DNA of 64,000 nt from positions 321,470,001-321,534,000 of the forward strand of contig OZ024740.1 in the NCBI GenBank assembly GCA_964016885.1, given 5' to 3'. Made by a program: the position numbers and the translations under genes. Source of the DNA: Eledone cirrhosa. Taxonomy: Eukaryota. Positions 888 to 49,190 of this stretch are shown here, piece by piece; the stretch's first letter is position 1; each line of letters opens with the position of its first letter. The notes beneath the pieces are model-generated. The model was given only the letters and a program-made list of their open reading frames with translations. It did no database searches and was not told the origin of the DNA.

Positions 888-902
888 AATTTTGAAAATG
901 AC

Positions 903-2543
903 TTGCCAGTCAGGTTGATTGCACCATCAAAATCTGACCTGGGTAAACTTAGCAAGAACATTCTAGACAGAGTGATACAGCAAATTAAGGACTTGAATTG
1001 TTTACCTGGCTTGACCTTGTGGAAGGGAACTGGGGAGGTCATTGAGTGGTTTAATGAAATTAAATATAACAATAATAATAAATTTATTCAACTAGATATT
1101 GTTAACTACTATTCATCCATTACCCCTAATCTACTTAATAAGGCACTAAATTACGCATTCAAGCATACAGACCTAACTAGCAATGAAATGCACATTATAT
1201 TATCGGCAAGGAAAACTTTGATAGAATTTAATAACCAACTATGGACTAGGGCAGATAGAGATAATAATTTTGACATTACTATGGGATCATCAGACTCAGC
1301 TCAGGTAACGGACCTTGTGGGCCTATTTATAATTAATTCGCTGCATAGGAAAATACCCGGTGTTACCGGAGGTTTATATAGAGATGACATGCTTTTACTT
1401 ATTGAAAATAATAACTCTGAACTAAATAAGAAAAGAAAACAAATTATACAATTTTTTAATTACCTTAATCTAAAAATAGAAATTGAGAATAACCATAGAA
1501 TAGTCAATTTCCTAGACGTAACATTTAATCTCAACACATGTCTTCACTATCCATTTCATAAGTTAAATGAAAACTTGAATTATGTCAATTTTAGCTCCAA
1601 TCACCCCAGATCTGTCAAAAATACTATAGTGAACTCTGTTCAAAAACGTATCTCTAGAATCTCTTCCAATAAAAATATTTTTGACGAAAAAGCCCAGTAT
1701 TATAATGAAGCTTTAGCTAGAGCAGGATATAGTGATAAAATTATGTACATCGATAATAGACAAACTAACCAAAATAACAACAATTTTAATTACAGTAACA
1801 ACTTTAACAACTATAATAGAAAGCACTACAATAATTTCAAAAACCAGAAAAGAAATAGAACTAGAAATATAATATGGTTTGCCCCCCCTTTCTCACTAAA
1901 CATTAAAACCCACATCGCTAAACTATTTTTTAATGCTCTTGACAAACGCTTCCCTAGAACACATAAGTATCACTCAATTTTTAATAGACATACTATAAAA
2001 TTAACGTACTCGTCCACCAAAAATTTAGCACAAAATATTAATAGAATAAATAATAGGAATCTAAAACCTAGCCAAAATACCGAAAATAGCCTAAACAATA
2101 TTCAACTAAAAAACTGTAACTGTAGAGATAGATATAAATGTCCGCTAAATAACAATTGCTTAGTTAAAAATATAATATACAACTGTAATGTTAGAACTGA
2201 TTTAAATTCTTTTAATTATGTTGGTTCCACCTCGACAGAATTTAAACTTCGCTATAATAATCACAAAAACTCTTTCACGGATCCAAATAAAAAATCCTCA
2301 ACATCGCTGTCAGGGTTACTCTGGCAACTTAAGCATGATAAAGTTGGATATTCGATGGTTTGGAATATAGTCTCAAAAGGGATTCCTTTTAATTCCTCTT
2401 CTGAGACTTGTGACCTCTGCGCGGAGGAGATATTCTTTATATTAAAATCTAAAAATTCCCTTAATTTACGAACCAATTTATTCAGCTGTTGCAGACATAG
2501 ATTGAACTCAACATTTAAATATAAATATAAATTTAAAATGTAA
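903..2543 (+). CDS. PLE reverse transcriptase + GIY-YIG endonuclease
   Basis: RT motifs DIVNYYSSI, MGSSDSAQVTDLVG, LYRDD and NFLDVTF. Cys-rich linker CNCR..CPL..C. Endonuclease IIY..YVGST..FKLRYNNH and CDLC..E..LN.R..CRHR. Confidence 0.9.
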   Translation: MPVRLIAPSKSDLGKLSKNILDRVIQQIKDLNCLPGLTLWKGTGEVIEWFNEIKYNNNNKFIQLDIVNYYSSITPNLLNKALNYAFKHTDLTSNEMHIILSARKTLIEFNNQLWTRADRDNNFDITMGSSDSAQVTDLVGLFIINSLHRKIPGVTGGLYRDDMLLLIENNNSELNKKRKQIIQFFNYLNLKIEIENNHRIVNFLDVTFNLNTCLHYPFHKLNENLNYVNFSSNHPRSVKNTIVNSVQKRISRISSNKNIFDEKAQYYNEALARAGYSDKIMYIDNRQTNQNNNNFNYSNNFNNYNRKHYNNFKNQKRNRTRNIIWFAPPFSLNIKTHIAKLFFNALDKRFPRTHKYHSIFNRHTIKLTYSSTKNLAQNINRINNRNLKPSQNTENSLNNIQLKNCNCRDRYKCPLNNNCLVKNIIYNCNVRTDLNSFNYVGSTSTEFKLRYNNHKNSFTDPNKKSSTSLSGLLWQLKHDKVGYSMVWNIVSKGIPFNSSSETCDLCAEEIFFILKSKNSLNLRTNLFSCCRHRLNSTFKYKYKFKM

Positions 2544-9925: not shown

Positions 9926-11681
9926 ACGTTTTTGTAAATAAATTAATGTTTTCATATCTCTCTGAAAAAAATCTCTTCAGCATTTTCTACTGAAATAATC
10001 TTTTTCCTTTATATATATATATATTTTGATTTTTTGATTGTACCTTTTAATATGAATGTAATCTCGAAGTGTGTACTGCCACTCTAAATTCTGTAATGAA
10101 TGTTGACCCACAATATTTGCATATGTATCGGTATGTCTCTTGGCTGAAAAGGAGGTCATATAACTGTCCATTCATTAATAAATTGCTCCGAAGAATCCAA
10201 ACCTCCGTTTGGAGGAAACAGCTGTAAGCACAATAATGTTTTGAACAGTTCTTTGATTCTTATATTTCATATAACTGCTCTGTAAATCATCTGATGTTTT
10301 TACATTGAGCTACTTAACTTACCGGTAATAAGGTAGTAATACATTACTGCCTACCACTATTTAGGGTTTGTATAAAAAATACATATAACTGCATAAGGTT
10401 TTTGTATTTACATAACCATAAATAGTATAATTAATACTAATTAATACTATATATATATATATATATTTGTGTGTGTGTATTGTAAGTAATATATATTTAT
10501 GCTAGAATACACCGTATAATAGGAGCTACAAGGTGAATTTTCACCATTCCCTCCCTCTGTACACAGAAAAAATATAGGAGATTACCTTTTTGCATTTCGG
10601 TGATTTCTGTTTCCTCATTCAATCACTATAATACTGATTGAACTTGAGTATCGTGAAATAAAGTGTCTTGCTTAAGTACACTTCGCGATGCAGGGCATTG
10701 AATTCACGTGACCCGAACAACTTCTAACCATTAAACCATGCGTCTTCACAACTCTGTAGTTAAGTTTTTTTACTCACCTCAAAGCTCCACAGAAAATACA
10801 GGATACGAACAAGCCAGGAAGGCCTCTGTACGTCCCCAACGACTGTGTCACAAAATAGGGTAGAATCTATAGCAGAATGGAAAATAAAACATGTTATAAG
10901 GAACCTTTCTTGATTCGATCCAGGTTCTGGTGACACCGAAATGGTGGGATTTGAACTGGACTTCAAATAATAAACCGTTAAATACTCATAACCGGAATCC
11001 CCTAGCTATACACTATTTAACATGTCCGATTTCTTACGAAATAAGGATTTTTTTGCCCAAGAAGAAACCCTCTCACATTAGCACAAGGTCTGCAATTTAT
11101 ATATCAGGTTTAATGGACACCAGCACATAACTGGTACTTTATCGTTCCAGGCTGATGACAAGGAGCATTCGAATTCAGATCGAAGAAGTATGGAATTTTA
11201 TAAGGTATTTAATATGGCTTCCCATCATATCTGACTTATTCTTATTAAATAATGGTTTCCTTGACCTAGGAAAAAATCCGTTTCAGGGAATGTACATGAT
11301 CAATAAAGTATGTTACTGGTATTATTTCGTGGATGAGATTTGAACAAGGCAGAAACATAGAATCAGAAACTGGAAGGGAATTATAGACATAACAGAATAT
11401 ATAGACCTGGAAACTGTGAGTTTGAGATATAAAAAGGAAAGAAGCCGATCGACAGATGAGACTGTTTTCATTGGTCTTTCTATTGCTGATACTATCTGCC
11501 GGTTGTAACTCCTGGTAGAGGGAGCAACGTCAACTAGAATATTTTGCTCAATGCTCGGTTCAGGAGTCGAACCTTGCAGTCATAAGTTCAACTTTCTATC
11601 TACTAAGCCACTCGCCTTCACGATATGGAAGGAAGATACATACATGACAGAATCTAAAGACAAAGAAACTGTTGTACTTAC

Positions 11682-11805
11682 TTTGTCATATGATTTAATT
11701 ACGGATAAAGGATCACAATCAGCGTAATTAGCATAAATAATGAGTCCTGTGACACACAATAAGGTGAGTATTAATAAGGAGACTGGTAAAGCGAGGTAAA
11801 CAGAT
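11682..11805 (-). CDS. SLC5A8-like: Sodium-coupled monocarboxylate/solute symporter (SLC5/SSS family), internal exon, 124 nt
   Basis: tttcag|A SVYLALPVSLLILTLLCVTGLIIYANYADCDPLSVIKSYDK|gtaagt. Y..CDPL is an SLC5 motif and the phase matches the preceding exon. Confidence 0.9.
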
Positions 11806-16203: not shown

Positions 16204-16344
16204 ATTGTTGCTGCCCTTTTATCCGGGAGAGAGACAAATCTCTGGATGATCATTTGTTGGAAGGAAAATGACGCAATTCCTGTAAATGTGGATCCTATGA
16301 TTGTACTCCATACAGAGTAGATAATTCGTGGGTCAGGATCAAAG
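16204..16344 (-). CDS. SLC5A8-like: SLC5/SSS transporter internal exon, 141 nt
   Basis: ttttcag|C FDPDPRIIYSVWSTIIGSTFTGIASFSFQQMIIQRFVSLPDKRAAT AT|gtgagt. Matches the SLC5 pattern DPDP..W..Q..QR. Confidence 0.92.
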
Positions 16345-16939: not shown

Positions 16940-17094
16940 TTAAAGTATGGCCATCGTTCTCCTTCTGAAATTAGCCTGGCAACTTGCGCTCCTCCTCCTG
17001 CATTTTGCATCCCAACGACGACAATCACAATTAGTGATGTAATCATCACAATTATCTGGAAGGCATCCGTCCAAACAACAGTTCGTAAGCCACC
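16940..17094 (-). CDS. SLC5A8-like: SLC5/SSS transporter internal exon, 155 nt
   Basis: ttgtag|GGLRTVVWTDAFQIIVMITSLIVIVVVGMQNAGGGAQVARLISEGERWPYF AA|gtgagt. Contains the SSS signature GGL..VVWTD.FQ. Confidence 0.95.
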
Positions 17095-18712: not shown

Positions 18713-18780
18713 AATGGCCGTGTACAGTGTACATAAAATTCCGACTAAGGCAATGGCCAAGGCTGGAGGCATCGCGGTTG
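18713..18780 (-). CDS. SLC5A8-like: SLC5/SSS transporter internal exon, 68 nt
   Basis: ccatag|CA TAMPPALAIALVGILCTLYTAI|gtaagt. Phase 1 in and phase 0 out, joining directly to GGL. Confidence 0.92.
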
Positions 18781-33892: not shown

Positions 33893-35690
33893 TCAATCCG
33901 GAGCTTTGTAGTTATGTAAGAGGTGTTTCGAGACGTGTGGACAAGGTGTGAAGAATTCATTTCTCGTGTTTAGGCAATCACTATTGCATAATCTCTTTAG
34001 AATATTTATTCGTTCATCAATACACAGTCCACACGACGGATTTCCCCTTGCGCATGGCTTGGACTTAGTGATGGCTTTCCATTGAATGGAGTAGTCTATA
34101 CTTGAGTCCTTGAGGGACCATACGTGGCTCGCGAGTTTCGTGGATGAACGTCTGTCCGGGTACCTAAAGGTCGACTGGTGGTTCAGGAAGCGTTCCTTAA
34201 ATCGGCCCTCCGCCATACCCACATAGGATTTGACCTCCTGTGGTTGATTTGGTCGGTTGGAATTGACAACATCTTCATAAATTACAGCGGGTGTGTTGCA
34301 TTGCTGTTGAAGGGGACAAGCTTCAGGCTTACGGCAAGAGCACCCTGGTGGGGTGTTGCTCTAAGGGCTGTTGGTGATGTGGGCCTTCATGTTCTTAGCG
34401 CAGGAGTATCTTAGTTTTACTTTGTGTCGGTTAAAGATGGAGCGGTATTTATAGGAAAGTGTCTATCTAAGAGTGCTAGAAACTTTTTGCCTACATTGGT
34501 TTTAACGTTGAGTGAGAAGGGAGGAGAGAACCAGATAGTTTGTCTATTGTTACGCTTTCTTTTCTTATTGCTGTTGTTGATAGTGGGAGAGTAAGTGATA
34601 GGTTGCGAGAAACCGCTGTTAGCTAACGCCGTGTTATAGTAGGGTGCCGCCCTATCAAAGATAGCCTTATTAGAGGAGAGGTTTTAGATTCTAGTACTGA
34701 TATTATTTACGAAGTTTCTAAAAACGGTGGGAGGGTGGCATGAGTCCTTGTGAATGTAATTGAGTTTTTCGTTTAGCTTATGGAAGGGTCTGTAGGTGTG
34801 TGTGCGAAGATCTAAATTAATATCTAAGAAATCTACGCTAGAGAGGTTGGTAGCTACTGTTATCCTAAGTCCTATCTCATTGAAAGTAGAAGCTAAGTCT
34901 TTTTTAAACCGGTCGAGGTCGTGACCACTTTTATGGCTCGATAAGGTCAGTCCGTCGTCGCGGTATATTCCCGTGTGGAAGTCCGGGAATCTAACACGTA
35001 ATATATCTAAAATAAATAGGCCAACCAAGTCGCATACGTCAGCACTGTCAAACGATCCCATGGAGACGTCGAATAGGTCTGAAGTTGTTGACTTCTTTGC
35101 CCAGGCTACTCCGTCGTTGAAGAGGAAGGTTTTCCGGCAGTGGGCGATGATTTCCCTGTCTAAACCATCGACGGTAGTGTAAGTGGTAGCGAAGTCCAAC
35201 GCTTTGTTTAACAGGGTCTCTGAGATCAACGGGTAAAAATCAACAATGTCGAACTGTGTGAATTTCGCTTTTTTGGATTTGAAGGAGTTGAACCACTTAA
35301 TTACGGAGTCGCTGTTTTCCCACTGGGACAGGTTGGACTTGGTCCTAATGGTGTTAACTATGTTTCTAAGTATGGCCTTACTGACTAGTCGCATATCTGT
35401 GCGTGCCGGGTTTATTAGTTTACATGTGGGGTTAGAAGTAAAGTCTACCTCGTGATCTTTCAGCGTGAGGAACGCCCCCCGCTTAGCTAGAGATTGTAGC
35501 TTCTTATCTACCTTAAGGGTGGCGGCAAGTTCTTTGGCTTCTGTATTAATGTCGTGGTAGGCCATAGGGTTAGCTTTCTTATATTTGGAAGTAATAGCGT
35601 TATGGGCCAGGTGGCGGAAAGTGGTGTTGTCGACTTCGTAAATATTATTAGTTTTGGCGGAAAGAACGAAAGTGTTATTAGAAGACCTAA
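33893..35690 (-). pseudogene. PLE RT/GIY-YIG ORF, disrupted
   Basis: ORF fragments 34684-35565 and 33893-34222 are homologous to 903-2543. Confidence 0.85.
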
Positions 35691-35811
35691 ATTACAGTTA
35701 TCTCCCTTACACCTCTCGCACGCTTTTTAGTATTGCCTGTGTGAAGTGACGGTTTCTGCGCATGCGCGTTCGTACGGTTGTCCTTCCTGTTCCGTATAAC
35801 CATGTCCATTA

Positions 35812-36289: not shown

Positions 36290-38040
36290 AAGAAGCTTGC
36301 TTACGAAAGGGTACGAAAAAGTACAGAGCATAATTTTAAATGCAGGAGACGATGTCTCTTCAGGTGGTGAAGTATGCCTGTAGGTGTTTCGGCCCCTTCC
36401 ACTGTGAGCTACTAGGGGCCACCCACCGATGTAGACGACGGTACTCCTTGCGCAACAGAACAATCTTAGGTGATTCTGATGTTATGATTCCGGGCGAGAA
36501 GTCTCCATCAACCTCTTTTCTTTTGAGCCAGATGTAATAACTCGTTTTCTCAATTACCTCCGATAATGCCCTCGAAAGATGTTTCCTTCCTTTGGCGCCA
36601 GTCAACTTCGGTTCAAACAAATCATCTGACACCTATCTCTACAGGGAAACATGATGCCTCCCATCCGCTGGTTTCACAGAGTTTAACTAACTCACTGTAC
36701 TTCCTGTTACATCATCCAGCAGTCTAAGTACCTGGTTTTGCCACGATGTATATATATCTGTTCTTCTGGCCTTTTGGGCAACTGGACAGTATAGCCTTCA
36801 TCGTTCCAGCCTTCCGGCATTTGCACAGGTCACTCTTTTCTACTTAATAACGTTTTAGGTTTGTGGGACTAGGAAGCATATCATAGACATTGCAAACCAT
36901 AAAACTGGTTCTGGCTGACTCCCATGATCAAAGTTTCTTCCATCTCATCTTCCACTCAACTATAAATTTCTCTCAAGACACTGTCCTTGTTAGCCTTATT
37001 GCGAATTCGTTAACTGGTTGATTGCCGCGAGCCTTCACTCTTTCATGGAGTAATATGGTCTGAGAATTTCTAAGGCCCTTTCTATTGCTCTGTGTGGGAC
37101 CTACTATGTCATCATATCCTAGAACGGCCACGAAGTACTCCGTCGCCGCCGATGCTATCCATTTTCTTTCAGTCATGAGCTCCGGTGAGGTGGAACAGAT
37201 GAGTTGATCATTTGAATGACGCAGAGTCAGCATGGTCGCACCTTGCCACATTTGTACTGCTCGACTATTGATTGGACCACTATTCTTGTACAAAGCCACA
37301 CATGCAAAGGTTTGTGTCAATCGTAGCCACTTACAAATAGATATTGTTTCCACTCACCAATCTCGACACATGTTAGTGTGACTTTATTCAACATTTGTGT
37401 CCATTGCAATCTCGGATACAGTGTAAACCACATGCACCAGAGCTTGACCTGATCTTTCTGTCAATCACTGAAAGTCGATCCCTGGCTATCTTATAGATTT
37501 TAAGCCCCTCACATCTATCACTGAATGATCCACAATACAACCTCTGAAGACACTTCACAGACTTCTCTGTAATCATTAGCAAGTCTTCACCTGTAACATC
37601 ATACTTCACTTCTTGTTGCCTTCTTTTGACAAGTGTTACACTGTAAGATTTCTTTACTTTGAAGCACATCTTCCCCCAACTTACTAGCTTATCAAGTCTG
37701 CTCAGGATTTTCACCATTGACTTCTTGTCTTTTGCCAACGATACTATGTCATCCATGAAGACTGTCTTTAAGGAGAGGATCTTCATTTCCCGGTCTTTAA
37801 ATGTTGTACCTCGCAGGATGACTTCCATTCCAAGTACAAACCATATGATTGATATTGTGAACCAAGCTGTAATTCCCACATCCAACTTCTGCCACACTGT
37901 TGTAAAGTTCTGTGTAGTAAAACAGTCGATCATCATAGTTAAGAAAACTTGGGTAAATAAGTCTAAGAGACGGAAAAAGTGTATAGAGGCTCATCTGTCC
38001 GTCTTTTTCCGTCTCTAAATGTAACTTACCTAATTTTATC
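36290..38040 (-). mobile_element. Degenerate non-LTR retrotransposon with restriction-like endonuclease (HERO/NeSL-like)
   Basis: TTVWQKLDVGI..FVLGMEVILR..FMDDI..W..M.FK.KKS, VYDMLPSPTNL and KYSEL..GWEA..PVEIG..YIWLKR, with many disruptions. Confidence 0.75.
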
Positions 38041-41072: not shown

Positions 41073-44000
41073 ATGGCTGGTTTACGAGGTGGAAGCGTGA
41101 ATGTGCAGGGCCAACTTTTAAACGACCTTAGGTCACACGGTATGGATGTGATAGCCATCACCGAGTCCAGGATCCACAACAGGCAGCAACTAACCCCCAT
41201 CTCCGACGACTTTGAGATCTATGCATCTCTCTGTCAGCCAGAAGGTGGAGTGGCTGTCAGTTTCGGAAGAACCTGGACGTCGAAGTACAGCAAGTACACT
41301 TGGACCCGGAGGGTAGACTGGTAGTCCTAGACGTGAACAGTATTGGAGGTGGAGCCTTCAGACTGGTGGCCGTTTATGCCCCGACCGGGCAATCGCAATC
41401 ACGGCCAGACTTCTTTAAGCGTCTAGAGTCTTTTCTGGGAACGTCTCGTTCCTTACTTTTAGTGGGGGACTGGAATGGTATCCTAGATGCACGATGGGAC
41501 TATGTTGGAGCATGTCCCAGTAGAGCGGGGTGCAACAGCGTCAAAACTTTAATCGGCCAATTCCAACTGGCCGATAGGTATCGACTGGATTTCCCGACTG
41601 CACCACAGTGGACGTGGGCAAACCGCAGTGGGGCATCTAGATCGTATTTAGATAGGTTCTTCATTAGAGAAAGGGACAAGGAGATGTTAAGCTGTCCACG
41701 AATTCACATGGTTGCCTATTTAGATCACAAATTAGTCGTCTGCTTAGTCAACTGTGATAGAACACATAAACAAGGACCCGGATACTGGGAGCTGAACGTG
41801 TCGTTGCCGGCACGTAAAGCTTACAGTGAACGGATAAGTAGACTAGTCAAGCAACAGTTAACAGGAGCCATCGTCAACAATAGATGGTGGTACTCTCTCA
41901 AGAAAGCAATTAGAATAGAATCGATAGGGTTTAGCAGAGAAAAGCAAACTTAGAGAAAAGCAAACTAGAAAGAGAACTAATAGCCAAGGTAGAGGAGGCA
42001 CTTAGAAGTGGCAACGCGGCTAGAGTGTTAGCGTCGAGAACGCCACTGGACCAGTTTTTCGATGCGAAACACGAAGGCTGCGTGGTCAGAAGCAAAACAC
42101 GTGCTCTAGGAAACGAAGGGGCGAAAGCTGTCAGCTGGGCCCGAGTGTCGGAGGCAAAAAGTGGCAACGATTCGGTCTTTGAAAGATCAAAACGGACGCG
42201 TGCTACTTGACCCCAAGCAAATGTGCGCGGCCTTTCAGTAGCATTTTGCGCGACTATTTGAGCAGAACGACGGTGAGCCGAACGGGGCAATGGACTTTAG
42301 TTTATACCTCGACGGCCTGCCGCGTCTCTCGAACACGGACGCCGAGTTCTGCGATAGACCAATCACGGACACTGAGATACGGGACGCTCTGGGCCGCTGC
42401 AGGAAACGCAAGTCACCTGGTCTAGATGGTCTACCCTATGAGTTTTACATAGGCATGCCGGACTTGTTCTCTGGCGTCCTCGAAGCCGTCTACTGTAATT
42501 GGCAGCTGAACGGGAAAATTCCCAGTTCTGCAGCAAAGGGCGTAGTAACGCTGATCAGGAAAGACGAGAACAAGGGGACGAAATTAACAACTTCAGGCCC
42601 ATAACTCAGCTCAACACAGAGTTAAAGATTTTGGCCAAGGTGCTAGCGACGAGGTTGGCGCTTGTCGTCAAGAACCTGGTAGGGAAAGCGCAAACGTGTG
42701 CAATCCCGACCAGGTCAATACACGACAACCTCCACCTCATGCGATACATCATAGAGAGAGTGGGTAGTAAACCCGGCTTCGGTGGGGCTCTGTATAAACT
42801 TGGATCAGTCTAAAGCATTCGATAGGGTCGACCATCGATACTTGGAAGCGGTTCTCAAGGCGGCCGGTTTCGGTCCCGTGTTCAGAGGATGGATCGAGGC
42901 GATTCACACCAGCATCTGCTCGAGGGTCAAGGTGAACGGCTACGTATCGGAGCCGTTCGCAATCACGCGTTCCATTCGACAGGGGTGCCCTCTCTCCTCC
43001 ATTCTGTATGTATTGTCTCTAGAGCCACTACTGCGGAAATTCGAGCTGTTGCAGGGCATCCCTCTAGAACTGGGACTGCGCAAAGCGGCGTCAGCTTATG
43101 CCGACGATGCGACGGTAATGGTGTCGAGCACCTCGGAAATCGGGGTGATCGGCAACTTACTGATCGGAAACGCTGAAGGGAGCAAAACTAAACCCGGACA
43201 AGTCTGTCAGTTTGCAACTCGGTACGTGGAGAGGCAAACCGATGACGTCCGACAGCGTCGTTGGACGCTGGACGGACGGACCTGTGAAATTGTTTGGGGT
43301 CTGGTTCGGTCCAGACCTCCAGGTGGAGAAAACCTGGAACGAGGTCACGGCCAAGGTGTTTGCACTCACCCAGAAGTGGGCAGAGTGCAAACTGTCCTTG
43401 AAAGGTCGAGCGGAGGTGGCGAACACTTTCATAGCGTCCGTCATCTACTACCGCTTGACTGTCGTGCCTTGTCCCCGTGAACACCTCGCCAAGATGGAAC
43501 GCATGCTCTTCCAGTTTCTGTGGAAGAAGCAGGCTCCGCTGGTGAGGAGATCCGTCTGCTGTCAGCACCCTTCCAACGGAGGGCTGGGAATGCCGTGGCT
43601 GATGATGCGCAAACATGCGCTGAGGCTGCGGCATCTCCAGGTATTCCTCACCGACCCCCAACCGGTGTGGGAACCGTTTGTGAGACAGGCTTTCCCACAG
43701 CTCGTCTCGCTGACGGAGCTGCAGTCCTGGGTCAAGAAAAGACCGAAAACAATGGGCGCCTGGCACATTGAATGCGCTCAGGCGCTCACAGTCCTCTGGC
43801 AAGCGGGCGCAGCAATCAGTGGAGACTCCACTTCGACATTCTATAGAGGGATTGTACGTTATAGGAGCGACGACGTGCTCGGAGAGACTCTGGGCGTCGA
43901 AGACGATGAGCTCACCAGTCTGTTTGGTAGGACTTTTCGCCCGGGACCTATGGACAACTTCCAGAGGTCCCTGGCCTGGCAGTGCTACCGAGGAGCTCTA

Positions 44001-44463
44001 CCGGTTCGTGACAAGATCTACAGGCAGGGATCCTTCCAAGAGGACGTGTCCAAGATGCGCGCAGGACATTGAAACAGTCCTGCATGCAATTATACACTGC
44101 CCGGGCGTAACCGACCTGTGGAACGATGCAGAACAACTGCTGTCGCGTATGGGACAAATCCAGTTGACTGCCGAGTCCATAGTAAGGATCAAACCGCCAG
44201 CCTCTTTCAAAAACGAAAGAGAGGCGGTTTTCCTCTGTACGGTGGCTATGGTGAAAGAAGTTATATGGTGGATGAGGTTGAGAGGACTGAGGACAGATGC
44301 CTTTCTCTCCGGACAACAATTGATTCCCTTCTTTAAGTATCACTTTAGAAGGAGAATCAGGGTGGAGAGAGAGGCACTGCACCCCAGTAAATTTACTGAA
44401 AGGTGGGTGAATGAAGCGAAAATGGCCCGAGTGATTGGGCCTTCTCTGTTTATAAGCCTGTAG
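41073..44463 (+). pseudogene. Tx1 ORF2 (AP endonuclease + reverse transcriptase + zinc finger), frameshifted
   Basis: DVIAITE, VYAP, GDWN, SYLDRF, LDH, KSPGLDGLPYEFY, FRPITQLN, DQSKAFDRV, QGCPLS, YADD, GGLGMP and CPRC..ETVLH..HC. Confidence 0.9.
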
Positions 44464-44696
44464 GTTGAAGAAGAGAGCAAAAGGAAGAAAGGAGAACTTG
44501 CACAACACGCTCCTGAAATTGAGGGTTGTTCTATCGACGGGGTATTAAACAACCCATTTGTGGCGCCTCCCCCCTATTGGGGATTTCGATTGTTGTAATT
44601 GTTTGTTTTTATATTTTTTACACGACTGTATGTAAAATCCCCGGCATGTCTTTGTATTGTCCCCTTTTCTTGTGCGCCCTTGTGGCTAATAAAGAA

Positions 44697-44776
<80 letters not shown>

Positions 44777-44787
44777 CGCTCTGTGTG

Positions 44788-45670
44788 TACTTCGACATTC
44801 TATAGAGGGATTGTACGTGACAAGGGCGACGACGTGCTCGGAGAGACTCTGGGCGTCGAAGACGATGAGCTCACCAGTATGTTTGGTAGGACTTTCCGCC
44901 CGGGACCTATGGACAACTTCCAGAGGTCCCTGGCCTGGCAGTGCTACCGAGGAGCTCTACCGGTTCGTGACAAGATCTACAGGCACGGACGCCCTGGCAG
45001 GGATCCTTCCAAGAGGACGTGTCCAAGATGTGCGCAAGACATTGAAACAGTTCTGCACGCAATTGTACACTGCCCGGGCGTAAGCGACCTGTGGAACTAT
45101 GCAGAACAACTGCTGTCGCGTATGGGACAAATACAGTTGACTGCCGAGTCCATAGTAAGGATCAAACCGCCAGACTCTTTCAAAAACGAAAGAGAGGCGG
45201 TTTTCCTCTGTACGGTGGCTATGGTGAAAGAAGTTATATGGTGGACGAGGTTGAGAGGACTGAGGACAGATGCCTTTCTCTCCGGACAACAATTGATTCC
45301 CTTCTTTAAGTATCACTTTAGAAGGAGAATCAGGGTGGAGAGAGAGGCACTGCACCCCAGTAAATTTACTGAAAGGTGGGTGAATAAAGCGAAAATGGCC
45401 CGAGTGATTGGGCCTTCTCTGTTTATAAGCCTGTAGGTTGAGGAAGAGAGCAAAAGGAAGAAAGGAGCACTTGCACAACACGCTCCTCGAGTTGAGGGTT
45501 GTTCTATCGACGGGGTATTAAACAACCCATTTGTGGCGCCTCCCCCCTATTGGGGATTTCGATTGTTGAAATTGTTTGTTTTTATATTTTTTACACGACT
45601 GTATGTAAAATCCCCGGCATGTCTTTGTATTGTCCCCTTTCTTGTTGCGCCCTTGTGGCTAATAAAAAAA

Positions 45671-47159: not shown

Positions 47160-47583
47160 AAGGGAGTGAAAGAGTGAGAGAAATAGGGAGTGAAAGGGTG
47201 AGAGAGAGAGAAAAGGAGACAGAGAGAGAGAGAGAAAGGGCGAGAGAAAGAGAGAGAAAGGAAGGGAGTGAAAGAGTGAGAGAAATAGGGAGTGAAAGGG
47301 TGAGAGAGAGAGAGAAAAGGAGACAGAGAGAGAGAGAAAGGGCGAGAGAAAGAGAAAAGAGGGGGAGAGAAAGGGTGAGAGAGAGAGAGGAGAAAAAGGG
47401 CGAGAGAAAGAGAAAAAGGGGGTGAGAGAGAGAGAAAGAGAGAGAGAGGGAGAGAGAGGGAGAGAGAGGGAGAGAGAGGGAGAGAGAGGGGGGCAATTAA
47501 CAAAGTAATACACAAAATAAAAATAAGATAAAATAAAATAAAATATAAAATATAAAAATCTTAAAGAAACATAAGTGACTTAC

Positions 47584-47635
47584 TTTGGCTGATGGTGATG
47601 GCTGGAGCATAGATGACCACTGACATATAGAGGAT
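47584..47635 (-). CDS. SLC5A8-like: SLC5/SSS transporter internal exon, 52 nt
   Basis: ttgtag|ILYMSVVIYAPAITISQ A|gtaagt. LY..V.YAPA motif. Its phase 1 end matches the exon at 18713-18780. Confidence 0.9.
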
Positions 47636-48331
47636 CTACAATAGAAAGTTAGGACATTGTGTTACCATGGTGATGGCCGGAGCATAGATGACCACTGACA
47701 TATAGAGGATCTACAATAGAAAGTTAGGACATTGTGTTACCATGGTGATGGCCGGAGCATAGATGACCACTGACATATAGAGGATCTACAATAGAAAGTT
47801 AGGACATTGTGTTACCATGGTGATGGCCGGAGCATAGATGACCACTGACATATAGAGGATCTACAATAGAAAGTTAGGACATTGTGTTACCATGGTGATG
47901 GCCGGAGCATAGATGACCACTGACATATAGAGGATCTACAATAGAAAGTTAGGACATTGTGTTACCATGGTGATGGCCGGAGCATAGATGACCACTGACA
48001 TATAGAGGATCTACAATAGAAAGTTAGGACATTGTGTTACCATGGTGATGGCCGGAGCATAGATGACCACTGACATATAGAGGATCTACAATAGAAAGTT
48101 AGGACATTGTGTTACCATGGTGATGGCCGGAGCATAGATGACCACTGACATATAGAGGATCTACAATAGAAAGTTAGGACATTGTGTTACCATGGTGATG
48201 GCCGGAGCATAGATGACCACTGACATATAGAGGATCTACAATAGAAAGTTAGGACATTGTGTTACCATGGTGATGGCTGGAGCATAGATGACCACTGACA
48301 TATAGAGGATCTACAATAGAAAGTTAGGACA
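47592..48331. repeat. 75-bp tandem repeat (about 10 copies) made of the exon and its splice acceptor
   Basis: aggatctaca at 47631, 47706, 47781 and every 75 bp up to 48306. Confidence 0.97.
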
Positions 48332-49190
48332 GGGCTCGGGTTGTGCCACAGGGCTCGTGTTGTGCCACAGGGCTCGGGTTGTGCCACTGGGCTCGGGTTG
48401 TGTCATAGGGCTCGTGTTGTGCCACAGGGCTCGGGTTGTGCCACAGACTCGAGTTGTGACACTTGGCTCGAGTAGTGACACAGCTCGAATTGTGACACTG
48501 GGCTCTAATTATTCCATTGAGTTCGGGTAGTGACATAGAGCTCAAGTTGAGCCACTGGGCTCTAGTTATTCCATTGGGCTTGGGTAGTGACACAGAGCTC
48601 AAGTTGAGCCACTGGGCTCTAGTTATTCCATTGGGCTTGGGTAGTGACACAGAGCTCAAGTTGAGCCACTGGCTCTAGTTATTCCATTGGGCTTGGGTAG
48701 TGACACAGAGCTCAAGTTGAGCCACTGGGCTCTAGTTATTCTATTGGGTTCGGGTAGTGACACAGAGCTCAAGTTGAGCCACTGGGCTCTAGTTATTCCA
48801 TTGGGCTTGGGTAGTGACACAGAGCTCAAGTTGAGCCACTGGGCTCTAGTTATTCTATTGGGTTCGGGTAGTGACATAGAGCTCAAGTTGAGCCACTGGG
48901 CTTCTAGTTATTCCATTTGGCTCGGCTAGTGACACAGAGCTCAAGTTGAGCCACTGGGCTCTAGTTATTCCATTGGGCTTGGGTAGTGACACAGAGCTCA
49001 AGTTGAGCCACTGGGCTCTAGTTATTCCATTTGGCTCGGGTAGTGACAAAGGGCTCGAGTTGTGCTACTCGGCTCGAGGTGTGACACTGGGCTTGAGAGT
49101 GACACAGAGCTCGAGTAGTGCCACTGGGATAGAGTTGTGCCGTCGGGCTCGAGTTATTTCACTGGGCTCCGATTGTGCCACTGGGCTCGA
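48332..49190. repeat. 19-bp minisatellite with central 57-bp higher-order unit
   Basis: gggctcgggttgtgccaca monomers at the edges. gagctcaagttgagccactgggctctagttattccattgggcttgggtagtgacaca repeated about 9 times in the centre. Confidence 0.92.

What the first reader, a model, noticed from the sequence alone, without database searches (positions are those of the whole stretch)
47584..48331. Host exon and its splice acceptor amplified into a 10-copy 75-bp array
Seen on the minus strand: each unit is gtaacacaatgtcctaactttctattgtag (30 nt, GT..AG) plus 45 nt encoding ILYMSVVIYAPAITM. Only the last copy continues to ISQ and the real GTAAGT donor. The nine upstream copies are therefore pseudo-exons with identical acceptors and a plausible ATG|GTAACA donor. 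Inference: including one adds 15 aa in frame to a transmembrane segment, replacing the true exon frameshifts, and reading through a spacer hits an in-frame TAG. The outer copies have CCA and the inner eight CCG, indicating recent expansion. This may be a length-polymorphic splicing rheostat or decoy array.
Basis: partly seen in the sequence, partly recalled or inferred. Interest (0 to 1): 0.75.

Follow-up and report, generated by a model that had tools for sequence, protein, structure and literature searches.

The report
Splice-acceptor "mirage" repeat, octopod transporter
A 75-base piece covering an intron end and most of one exon of an octopus-type sodium-driven transporter gene is repeated ten times, a known kind of repeat ("mirage"), and the nine extra copies are likely spliced out with the intron so that only the last, intact exon is used.

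Summary
The array is real: ten copies at 48331-47591 (minus strand), inner eight identical, both outer copies CCA. Public read contigs of one sample hold the tandem junction as a closed 75-base loop. The host is an intact 13-exon SLC5 (SMVT-like) gene, 432/563 residues identical to the Octopus bimaculoides protein, using copy 10 as the 52-nt exon 3. The unit holds the acceptor and 44 of 52 exon bases. The junction donor ATG|GTAACA is weak: 0 of 54 real donors from this genome share its class, though its U1 pairing is near the weakest real ones. Every alternative product either stops early or adds 15 residues inside a helix that has no indel in 121 of 123 homologues. This is a 'mirage' minisatellite, known from amphioxus and human genes; even the homogenised interior with older edges is described. 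I found a second one in a paralogue, at the rate chance predicts (1 seen, about 0.9 expected), and this scan noted similar arrays before in other genes of this genome. No RNA was available, so leaky splicing is not excluded; a rheostat has no support.

The parts
47591..48331 (-). 75-bp minisatellite ('mirage'), 10 copies of the intron-2/exon-3 acceptor region of the SLC5 gene
   Evidence: loop contig in raw-read assemblies; only locus matched in the genome
48266..48331 (-). Copy 1: 21 nt of intron end + 45-nt block, CCA variant; abuts the satellite, lacks the 5' 9 nt of the spacer
47666..48265 (-). Copies 2-9: eight identical units (30-nt spacer + 45-nt block), CCG variant; each ends in the weak junction donor ATG|GTAACA
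47636..47665 (-). Spacer of copy 10 = the acceptor inferred to be used (CTAAC branch-like motif with A at -14, 12 of 17 pyrimidines, TAG)
   Evidence: use inferred from the intact reading frame
47584..47635 (-). True exon 3, 52 nt, ILYMSVVIYAPAITISQ + 1 nt; 16 of 17 residues identical to O. bimaculoides P0001; inside predicted helix 124-157
47576..47583 (-). True donor AAA|GTAAGTCA of exon 3
   Evidence: matrix score 6.5; 0.1% of 9,333 intronic GTs reach it; it was part of the training set
48332..49190 (.). Separate 19-bp/57-bp satellite directly upstream of copy 1; its unit end resembles the 10-nt junction piece at 2-3 mismatches
   Evidence: (4 matches, all at this locus)
18713..18780 (-). 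Exon 4 (68 nt) of the host gene
16940..17094 (-). Exon 5 (155 nt)
16204..16344 (-). Exon 6 (141 nt)
11682..11805 (-). Exon 7 (124 nt)
10778..10866 (-). Exon 8 (89 nt); exons 1-2 lie beyond the window's end and exons 9-13 before its start

Best explanation
The array is a young tandem repeat that copied the splice acceptor and 44 bases of exon 3 of an intact SLC5 transporter gene, and the nine upstream copies are likely removed as part of intron 2 because only the last copy is followed by a strong donor. Shown: the array, the intact 563-aa frame through copy 10, the weak junction donor, the stop codons in all read-through products. Inferred: a 65-75-nt duplication across the acceptor arose as one of the many minisatellite seeds of this genome; one inner copy changed CCA to CCG and then spread by slippage or unequal crossing-over, leaving the two edge copies unconverted; with flanking introns of 22.6 and 28.8 kb the exon is defined across itself, so the strong AAA|GTAAGT donor pairs with the nearest acceptor; rare use of an upstream acceptor gives a premature stop and would be cleared by nonsense-mediated decay. 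The array would be a tolerated by-product, with at most a small loss of message.
For: Intact 13-exon frame, 432/563 identical to P0001, exon 3 16/17; one locus for this orthologue in the genome. Junction donor class 0 of 54; only 3 of 54 real donors score lower leave-one-out; all 5 real donors lacking both +5G and +6T have CAG before GT. The 63-residue stretch of exons 2-4 has no indel in 121 of 123 homologues, the other two being internally doubled proteins, and lies in a continuous predicted helix, so a +15 isoform is unlikely to be useful. Minisatellites are dense here: 52 merged arrays (39 kb) in 400 kb of seven paralogue loci; 1 of 70 exon segments is overlapped, about 0.9 expected from random placement. 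Precedent: amphioxus mirages with RT-PCR showing regular splicing, and concerted evolution of inner units with boundary units excluded (PMC3087553, passages; PMC3902484, one passage); CBS 844ins68 gives mostly wild-type mRNA (PMC1334203, passage).
Against: No transcript of this gene from this species was seen, so the choice of copy 10 is not shown. The array is young, so an intact frame does not prove the gene still works with it. Each copy repeats 44 exon bases, hence any exonic enhancers, far more than the 4-20 bases of many mirages. U1 pairing of the junction donor (-5.0) is within 0.6 kcal/mol of the true donor, two placed paralogue donors pair more weakly (-1.9, -3.3), and CAG|GTAACA is a real donor in a paralogue. 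In human donor-side arrays (6-16, CBS IVS13) two pseudo-sites are used besides the authentic one, and in globin constructs with duplicated sites the proximal copy was used, which for acceptors is the upstream one (PMC1557585, sections 4 and 12). A 52-nt exon is short; 127- or 202-nt exons from upstream acceptors are of ordinary size (my knowledge).
Confidence: 0.7

Rival explanations
1. Leaky decoy array: upstream acceptors compete measurably for the true donor (or use the junction donor), the products are degraded, and functional mRNA falls with copy number; an accidental hypomorph, not an adaptation.
For: Nine acceptors identical over 21-30 nt, each with its branch-like motif and 44 exon bases; all read-through forms stop at 162 aa; pseudo-site use is reported for human 6-16 and CBS IVS13 and traces of a second nuclear transcript for CBS 844ins68.
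Against: Tested acceptor-side and amphioxus cases splice normally; long introns favour the acceptor next to the strong donor (inference).
Confidence: 0.18
2. The array disables this allele: an upstream acceptor wins, nearly all message carries a stop, and the sequenced haplotype is a recent loss-of-function variant.
For: Proximal-copy choice in duplicated-site globin constructs; the array is too young for decay of the frame to show; the assembly gives one haplotype only.
Against: At least two steps of expansion plus a point change accumulated while the frame stayed open; no second orthologous copy to compensate.
Confidence: 0.06
3. Functional cassette or rheostat: 45-nt copies are included on purpose, adding 15 residues per copy or tuning expression, and array length is under selection.
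For: 45 nt is a multiple of three, phase 0 matches exon 2, copy plus true exon gives an open 578-aa frame; every copy has AG before and GT after; the 30-nt spacer would make neighbours mutually exclusive by steric interference (under 50 bp donor to branch point, PMC5740500, passage).
Against: Weak donor; insertion falls in a helix with no indel in 121 of 123 homologues; copies are identical, so no protein diversity; four O. bimaculoides/vulgaris/sinensis proteins show the plain exon; frequency of edge-spanning arrays matches chance.
Confidence: 0.04
4. Assembly artefact.
For: Eight identical units; no read spanning the whole array was seen; the supporting runs come from one sample that may be the assembly's source.
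Against: A closed one-period contig at depth 24 and 50 in two runs; those runs hold 0.25-0.29 of the stretch's words, matching the 75 of 267 distinct 31-mers that belong to the loop, which suggests the loop is much deeper than the unique flanks; distinct edge variants.
Confidence: 0.02

Closest known systems
'Mirage' minisatellites of amphioxus (Adh3, globins BflGb6/BflGb9, troponin C, PGBD5); PMC3087553 (abstract and section-16 passages read), PMC3902484 (one passage read)
   Same: Tandem copies of an intron 3' end plus exon start placed before the authentic exon; splice signals kept; unit within the reported 10-160 bp; inner units homogenised, boundary units excluded.
   Different: In an octopod; unit covers 85% of a short exon and the junction happens to create a GT after an in-frame 45 nt; normal splicing and length variation were shown there and are untested here.
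Human CBS 844ins68 (PMC1334203, passages read; the primary paper PMC1914867 is not held)
   Same: [quoted passage not shown] That it duplicates the intron 7/exon 8 junction is recalled, not read.
   Different: One extra copy instead of nine.
Human donor-spanning VNTRs: F7 IVS7 37 bp, 6-16, CBS IVS13, LAMIN B2, PDGF (PMC1557585; abstract, introduction and discussion read)
   Same: Identical splice sites reiterated by a minisatellite; authentic site used alone (F7, LAMIN B2, PDGF) or with two pseudo-sites (6-16, CBS).
   Different: Donor side; here the acceptor is repeated and the authentic site is the last copy.
Mutually exclusive exon clusters from tandem exon duplication (PMC5740500, passages read)
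   Same: Adjacent exon-like copies too close to be joined.
   Different: Copies are 45 nt against 52 nt (not frame-compatible), identical in sequence and without a credible donor.

Membership tests
Mirage minisatellite | Tandem repeat whose unit spans an intron-exon boundary of the host gene | tested here: met
   21-30 nt intron end + 44 nt of exon 3, ten copies
Mirage minisatellite | Authentic exon intact at one end of the array | tested here: met
   Copy 10 gives the 52-nt exon and an open 563-aa frame
Mirage minisatellite | Repeats keep AG/GT splice signals | tested here: met
   All ten keep TAG; nine are followed by GT
Mirage minisatellite | Inner units homogenised, boundary units excluded | tested here: met
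   Copies 2-9 identical (CCG), copies 1 and 10 CCA; one site only
Mirage minisatellite | Length variation between haplotypes or cells | not testable with these tools
   One haplotype in the assembly; contigs collapse the array; RAD-seq runs laid gave no reads
Mirage minisatellite | Regular splicing is not disturbed | not testable with these tools
   No RNA run listed
Mutually exclusive exon cluster | Alternative exons are frame-compatible substitutes | tested here: not met
   45 versus 52 nt; substitution stops after 164 aa
Mutually exclusive exon cluster | Each exon has its own working donor | tested here: inconclusive
   Class 0 of 54, matrix score -0.02, but U1 pairing -5.0; no RNA
SLC5/SSF, SLC5A5-6-8-12-like host gene | PF00474 matches and similarity to solved SMVT, SMCT1 and NIS | tested here: met
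   PF00474 at exons 1 and 5; exon 1 hits 26va, 7sl9, 9zfl, 7uuy; orthologue P0001 hits SMVT at 3e-106 and SMCT1 at 2e-103, so the substrate is not settled

The most novel reading that the evidence does not exclude
A nascent, copy-number-tunable splicing switch: nine complete in-frame pseudo-exons, mutually exclusive between neighbours, siphon a measurable share of transcripts into decay or into a +15-residue transporter, so that array length sets transporter dose; the synonymous CCA/CCG mark would let one read out directly which of ten identical acceptors a spliceosome picks in vivo.
Probability: 0.1. Interest if true: 0.55.

Novelty: new member of a known kind. Interest (0 to 1): 0.2.

Why it matters
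As a single locus it matters little: it is one more mirage in a genome full of minisatellites. Its use is as a natural test substrate: ten acceptors identical over 21-30 nt, nine of them with 44 exon bases behind, and a built-in silent marker, make it a clean case for asking whether exon definition alone picks the last acceptor in a cephalopod. It also adds a second animal lineage to the mirage class: three searches of the paper library (listings and abstract starts only) showed no paper describing mirages in cephalopods, but most subscription journals are not searched. For annotation, such arrays can mislead gene predictors at this exon.

Tried and rejected
No RNA holder listed for the stretch, so no expression test. 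The two RAD-seq runs laid had no reads on it: no test of polymorphism. No relative's genomic sequence is held, so the ancestral intron end could not be seen. Origin of the 10-nt junction piece: nearest matches within 1 kb are satellite unit ends at 2-3 mismatches, no 15-mer within 2 mismatches in 264 kb; a match of that quality to a 19-bp unit has roughly a 1 in 10 chance (my estimate), so it is suggestive only; either the ancestral intron ended with it and copy 1 lost it, or it is a filler. Circular-RNA or RNA-editing origin of the A-to-G change: considered because CCA to CCG is A-to-G on the transcribed strand, rejected as unsupported (the junction is not a back-splice; one transition). RNA structure as a mask: the same hairpin forms in every unit including the true one, so it does not single out copy 10. 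Other GTs in the unit pair U1 more weakly (-2.6 to +0.7). A 16-mer recurrence test found 0 of 70 paralogue exon segments but misses arrays with under 6 exon bases such as the C10 one; the TRF overlap test replaced it. Of 45 paralogue donor positions tested, 2 gave no GT and 1 (C17 exon 9) was dropped as misplaced before the count of 54. The chance estimate of 0.9 is crude (median period times edges over gene span) and the sample small. Paper searches gave nothing useful; supplements were not consulted (those of PMC3087553 hold the BflGb6 alignments).

Full report
Observation. On the minus strand ten copies of a 45-nt exon-like block recur every 75 nt from 48310 to 47635. Copies 2-9 are identical; copies 1 and 10 have CCA where the others have CCG; copy 10 has C instead of G at the last position and continues into the rest of the exon and AAA|GTAAGT. 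Copy 1 keeps only 21 nt of the spacer and abuts a separate 19/57-bp satellite (48332-49190). So the repeated genomic piece is 21 nt of intron plus 44 nt of exon, joined by a 10-nt piece that does not stand before copy 1. A DNA search of the genome with two units matched only this locus (9 matches; the tool warns that this does not prove rarity).

Is it real? Three public runs of one sample hold 0.25-0.29 of the sampled words. Of four runs laid, X1 and X3 each gave one 105-nt contig without mismatch, at word depth 24 and 50, beginning at different places in the unit. 105 is 75 + 30, the length of a closed single-period loop at word length 31, which requires the tandem junction in the reads. The loop accounts for 75 of 267 distinct 31-mers of the stretch (0.28), so these runs seem to hold the loop and not the unique flanks, as expected if the loop is many times deeper (inference). 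The sample may be the assembly's own, and copy number was not measured.

Host gene. PF00474 matches flank the array. Exon 1 found an Octopus bimaculoides protein annotated as sodium-dependent multivitamin transporter at 78% identity (P0001). Using it I placed 13 exons over 148 kb: coding lengths 348, 66, 52, 68, 155, 141, 124, 89, 128, 158, 185, 101 and a last exon, all introns GT-AG. With copy 10 as exon 3 the frame is open for 563 aa, 432 of 563 columns identical to P0001, exon 3 16 of 17. High-identity matches fall at this locus only. Introns 2 and 3 are 22,594 and 28,803 nt. The genome is therefore octopod by similarity; P0001 is about equally near human SMVT and SMCT1, so the substrate is open.

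What the copies could do. In a script: a 45-nt copy plus the true exon gives 578 aa in frame; a copy instead of the true exon stops after 164 aa; copy 9's acceptor with the true donor (127 nt) stops after 162 aa, and so would any acceptor further upstream; skipping exon 3 stops after 149 aa. The +15 form lands inside helix 124-157 of an AlphaFold2 model of P0001 (mean pLDDT 85, about 92 here). The 63 residues of exons 2-4 have no indel in 121 of 123 homologues (the 120 best of 882 hits, mostly fish, plus 3 cluster members; the two exceptions are internally doubled proteins). Neighbouring copies are 30 nt apart, under the 50-bp donor-to-branch-point distance used to call steric interference in human exons (PMC5740500, passage), so copy 9 could not be joined to copy 10.

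How good is the junction donor? I placed donors in five paralogues by protein profile alone, without a splice term: 43 of 45 positions gave GT, one was dropped as misplaced, and with the host's 12 this gives 54. None lacks AG at -2/-1, +5G and +6T together, as ATG|GTAACA does; the five that lack both +5G and +6T all have CAG, among them CAG|GTAACA. A matrix from these donors scores the junction -0.02 and the true donor 6.5; 3 of 54 real donors score lower leave-one-out, and 9.3% of 9,333 intronic GTs score as high. Against this, pairing to the genome's own U1 end is -5.0 for the junction and -5.6 for the true donor, and two paralogue donors pair more weakly. The donor is marginal, not impossible.

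Base rate. In 400 kb around seven SLC5 paralogues TRF gives 52 merged arrays with period 25 or more, covering 39 kb; 1 of 70 exon segments is overlapped by one, a 29-bp x 20 acceptor repeat on C10, and one more array ends 9 nt before an acceptor; random placement predicts about 0.9. The host region holds many other arrays and none of its other 12 exons is repeated. So edge-spanning arrays are what this genome's repeat load should produce, given that those leaving an intact exon can persist (inference).

Mechanism. Most likely (0.7): a short duplication across the acceptor, one CCA-to-CCG change in an inner copy, spread of that copy by slippage or unequal crossing-over, and splicing by exon definition to the last acceptor, with stray products removed by decay. 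The last two steps are inferred; no RNA was available. The main caveat is that each copy repeats 44 exon bases and a full acceptor, and that duplicated-site experiments cited in PMC1557585 (discussion) favoured the proximal copy, so leakage (0.18) or a disabled allele (0.06) remain possible. A selected rheostat or cassette (0.04) lacks any positive evidence.

Comparison. My reading before consulting earlier notes was an intronic decoy array; the name 'mirage' came from those notes, and I checked it in the paper. PMC3087553 (passages) describes tandem duplications of intron 3' end plus exon start in amphioxus, units of 10-160 bp, regular splicing by RT-PCR, length instability, and homogenised inner units with excluded boundary units. 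PMC3902484 (passage) repeats that they give no aberrant mRNA. Human parallels are CBS 844ins68 and the donor-side VNTRs of F7, 6-16, CBS, LAMIN B2 and PDGF. Four structural features of the class are met here, two functional ones could not be tested. Earlier agents noted at least seven such arrays in other genes of this genome (unchecked AI notes, not counted as support); none was noted near this place.

Verdict. A real, young mirage minisatellite in an intact transporter gene: new member of a known kind, interest 0.2. Its one special trait is that the unit covers most of a short exon and ends on a weak in-frame GT, which makes it a handy substrate for testing acceptor choice.

Noticed in passing
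G000:C10:25641394-25641972 (+), loci L053-L054: A second acceptor mirage: 29-bp unit x 20 holding the intron end and 4 exon bases before an exon of another SLC5 gene; some units have lost the AG.
   Followed up: partly
G000:C10:25669681-25670166 (+), locus L056: 31-bp x 15.7 array that ends 9 nt before an acceptor of the same gene; that 40-kb locus is unusually dense in minisatellites.
   Followed up: partly
window 41216-45436 (+) and 37391-37990 (-): Broken LINE-type element in intron 3, antisense to the host: endonuclease, RVT_1 and zf-RVT matches in separate frames; a further weak RVT fragment on the minus strand.
   Followed up: partly
window 48332-49190: 19-bp satellite with a younger 57-bp higher-order core, found at this locus only, ending 21 nt before copy 1's acceptor AG.
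   Followed up: partly
window, each unit junction (e.g. 48263-48270): The junction forms the palindrome ACCATGGT; possibly a trace of template switching, untested.
   Followed up: no
G000:C17, exon 3 donor of an SLC5 paralogue (loci L037-L038): A real donor CAG|GTAACA at the homologous exon 3, the same intronic hexamer as the junction donor.
   Followed up: yes
window 888-2543 (+) and 34684-35691 (-): Stop-free frames of 551 and 335 codons without a Pfam match; not examined further.
   Followed up: no
G000:C2:180973544-180995099 and C1128: U1 snRNA genes in tandem arrays with a period of about 2,674 bp.
   Followed up: no
about 94-100 kb before the window's start (locus L026/L025 region): 38-bp x 161 satellite of about 6 kb beyond the gene's 3' end.
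   Followed up: no
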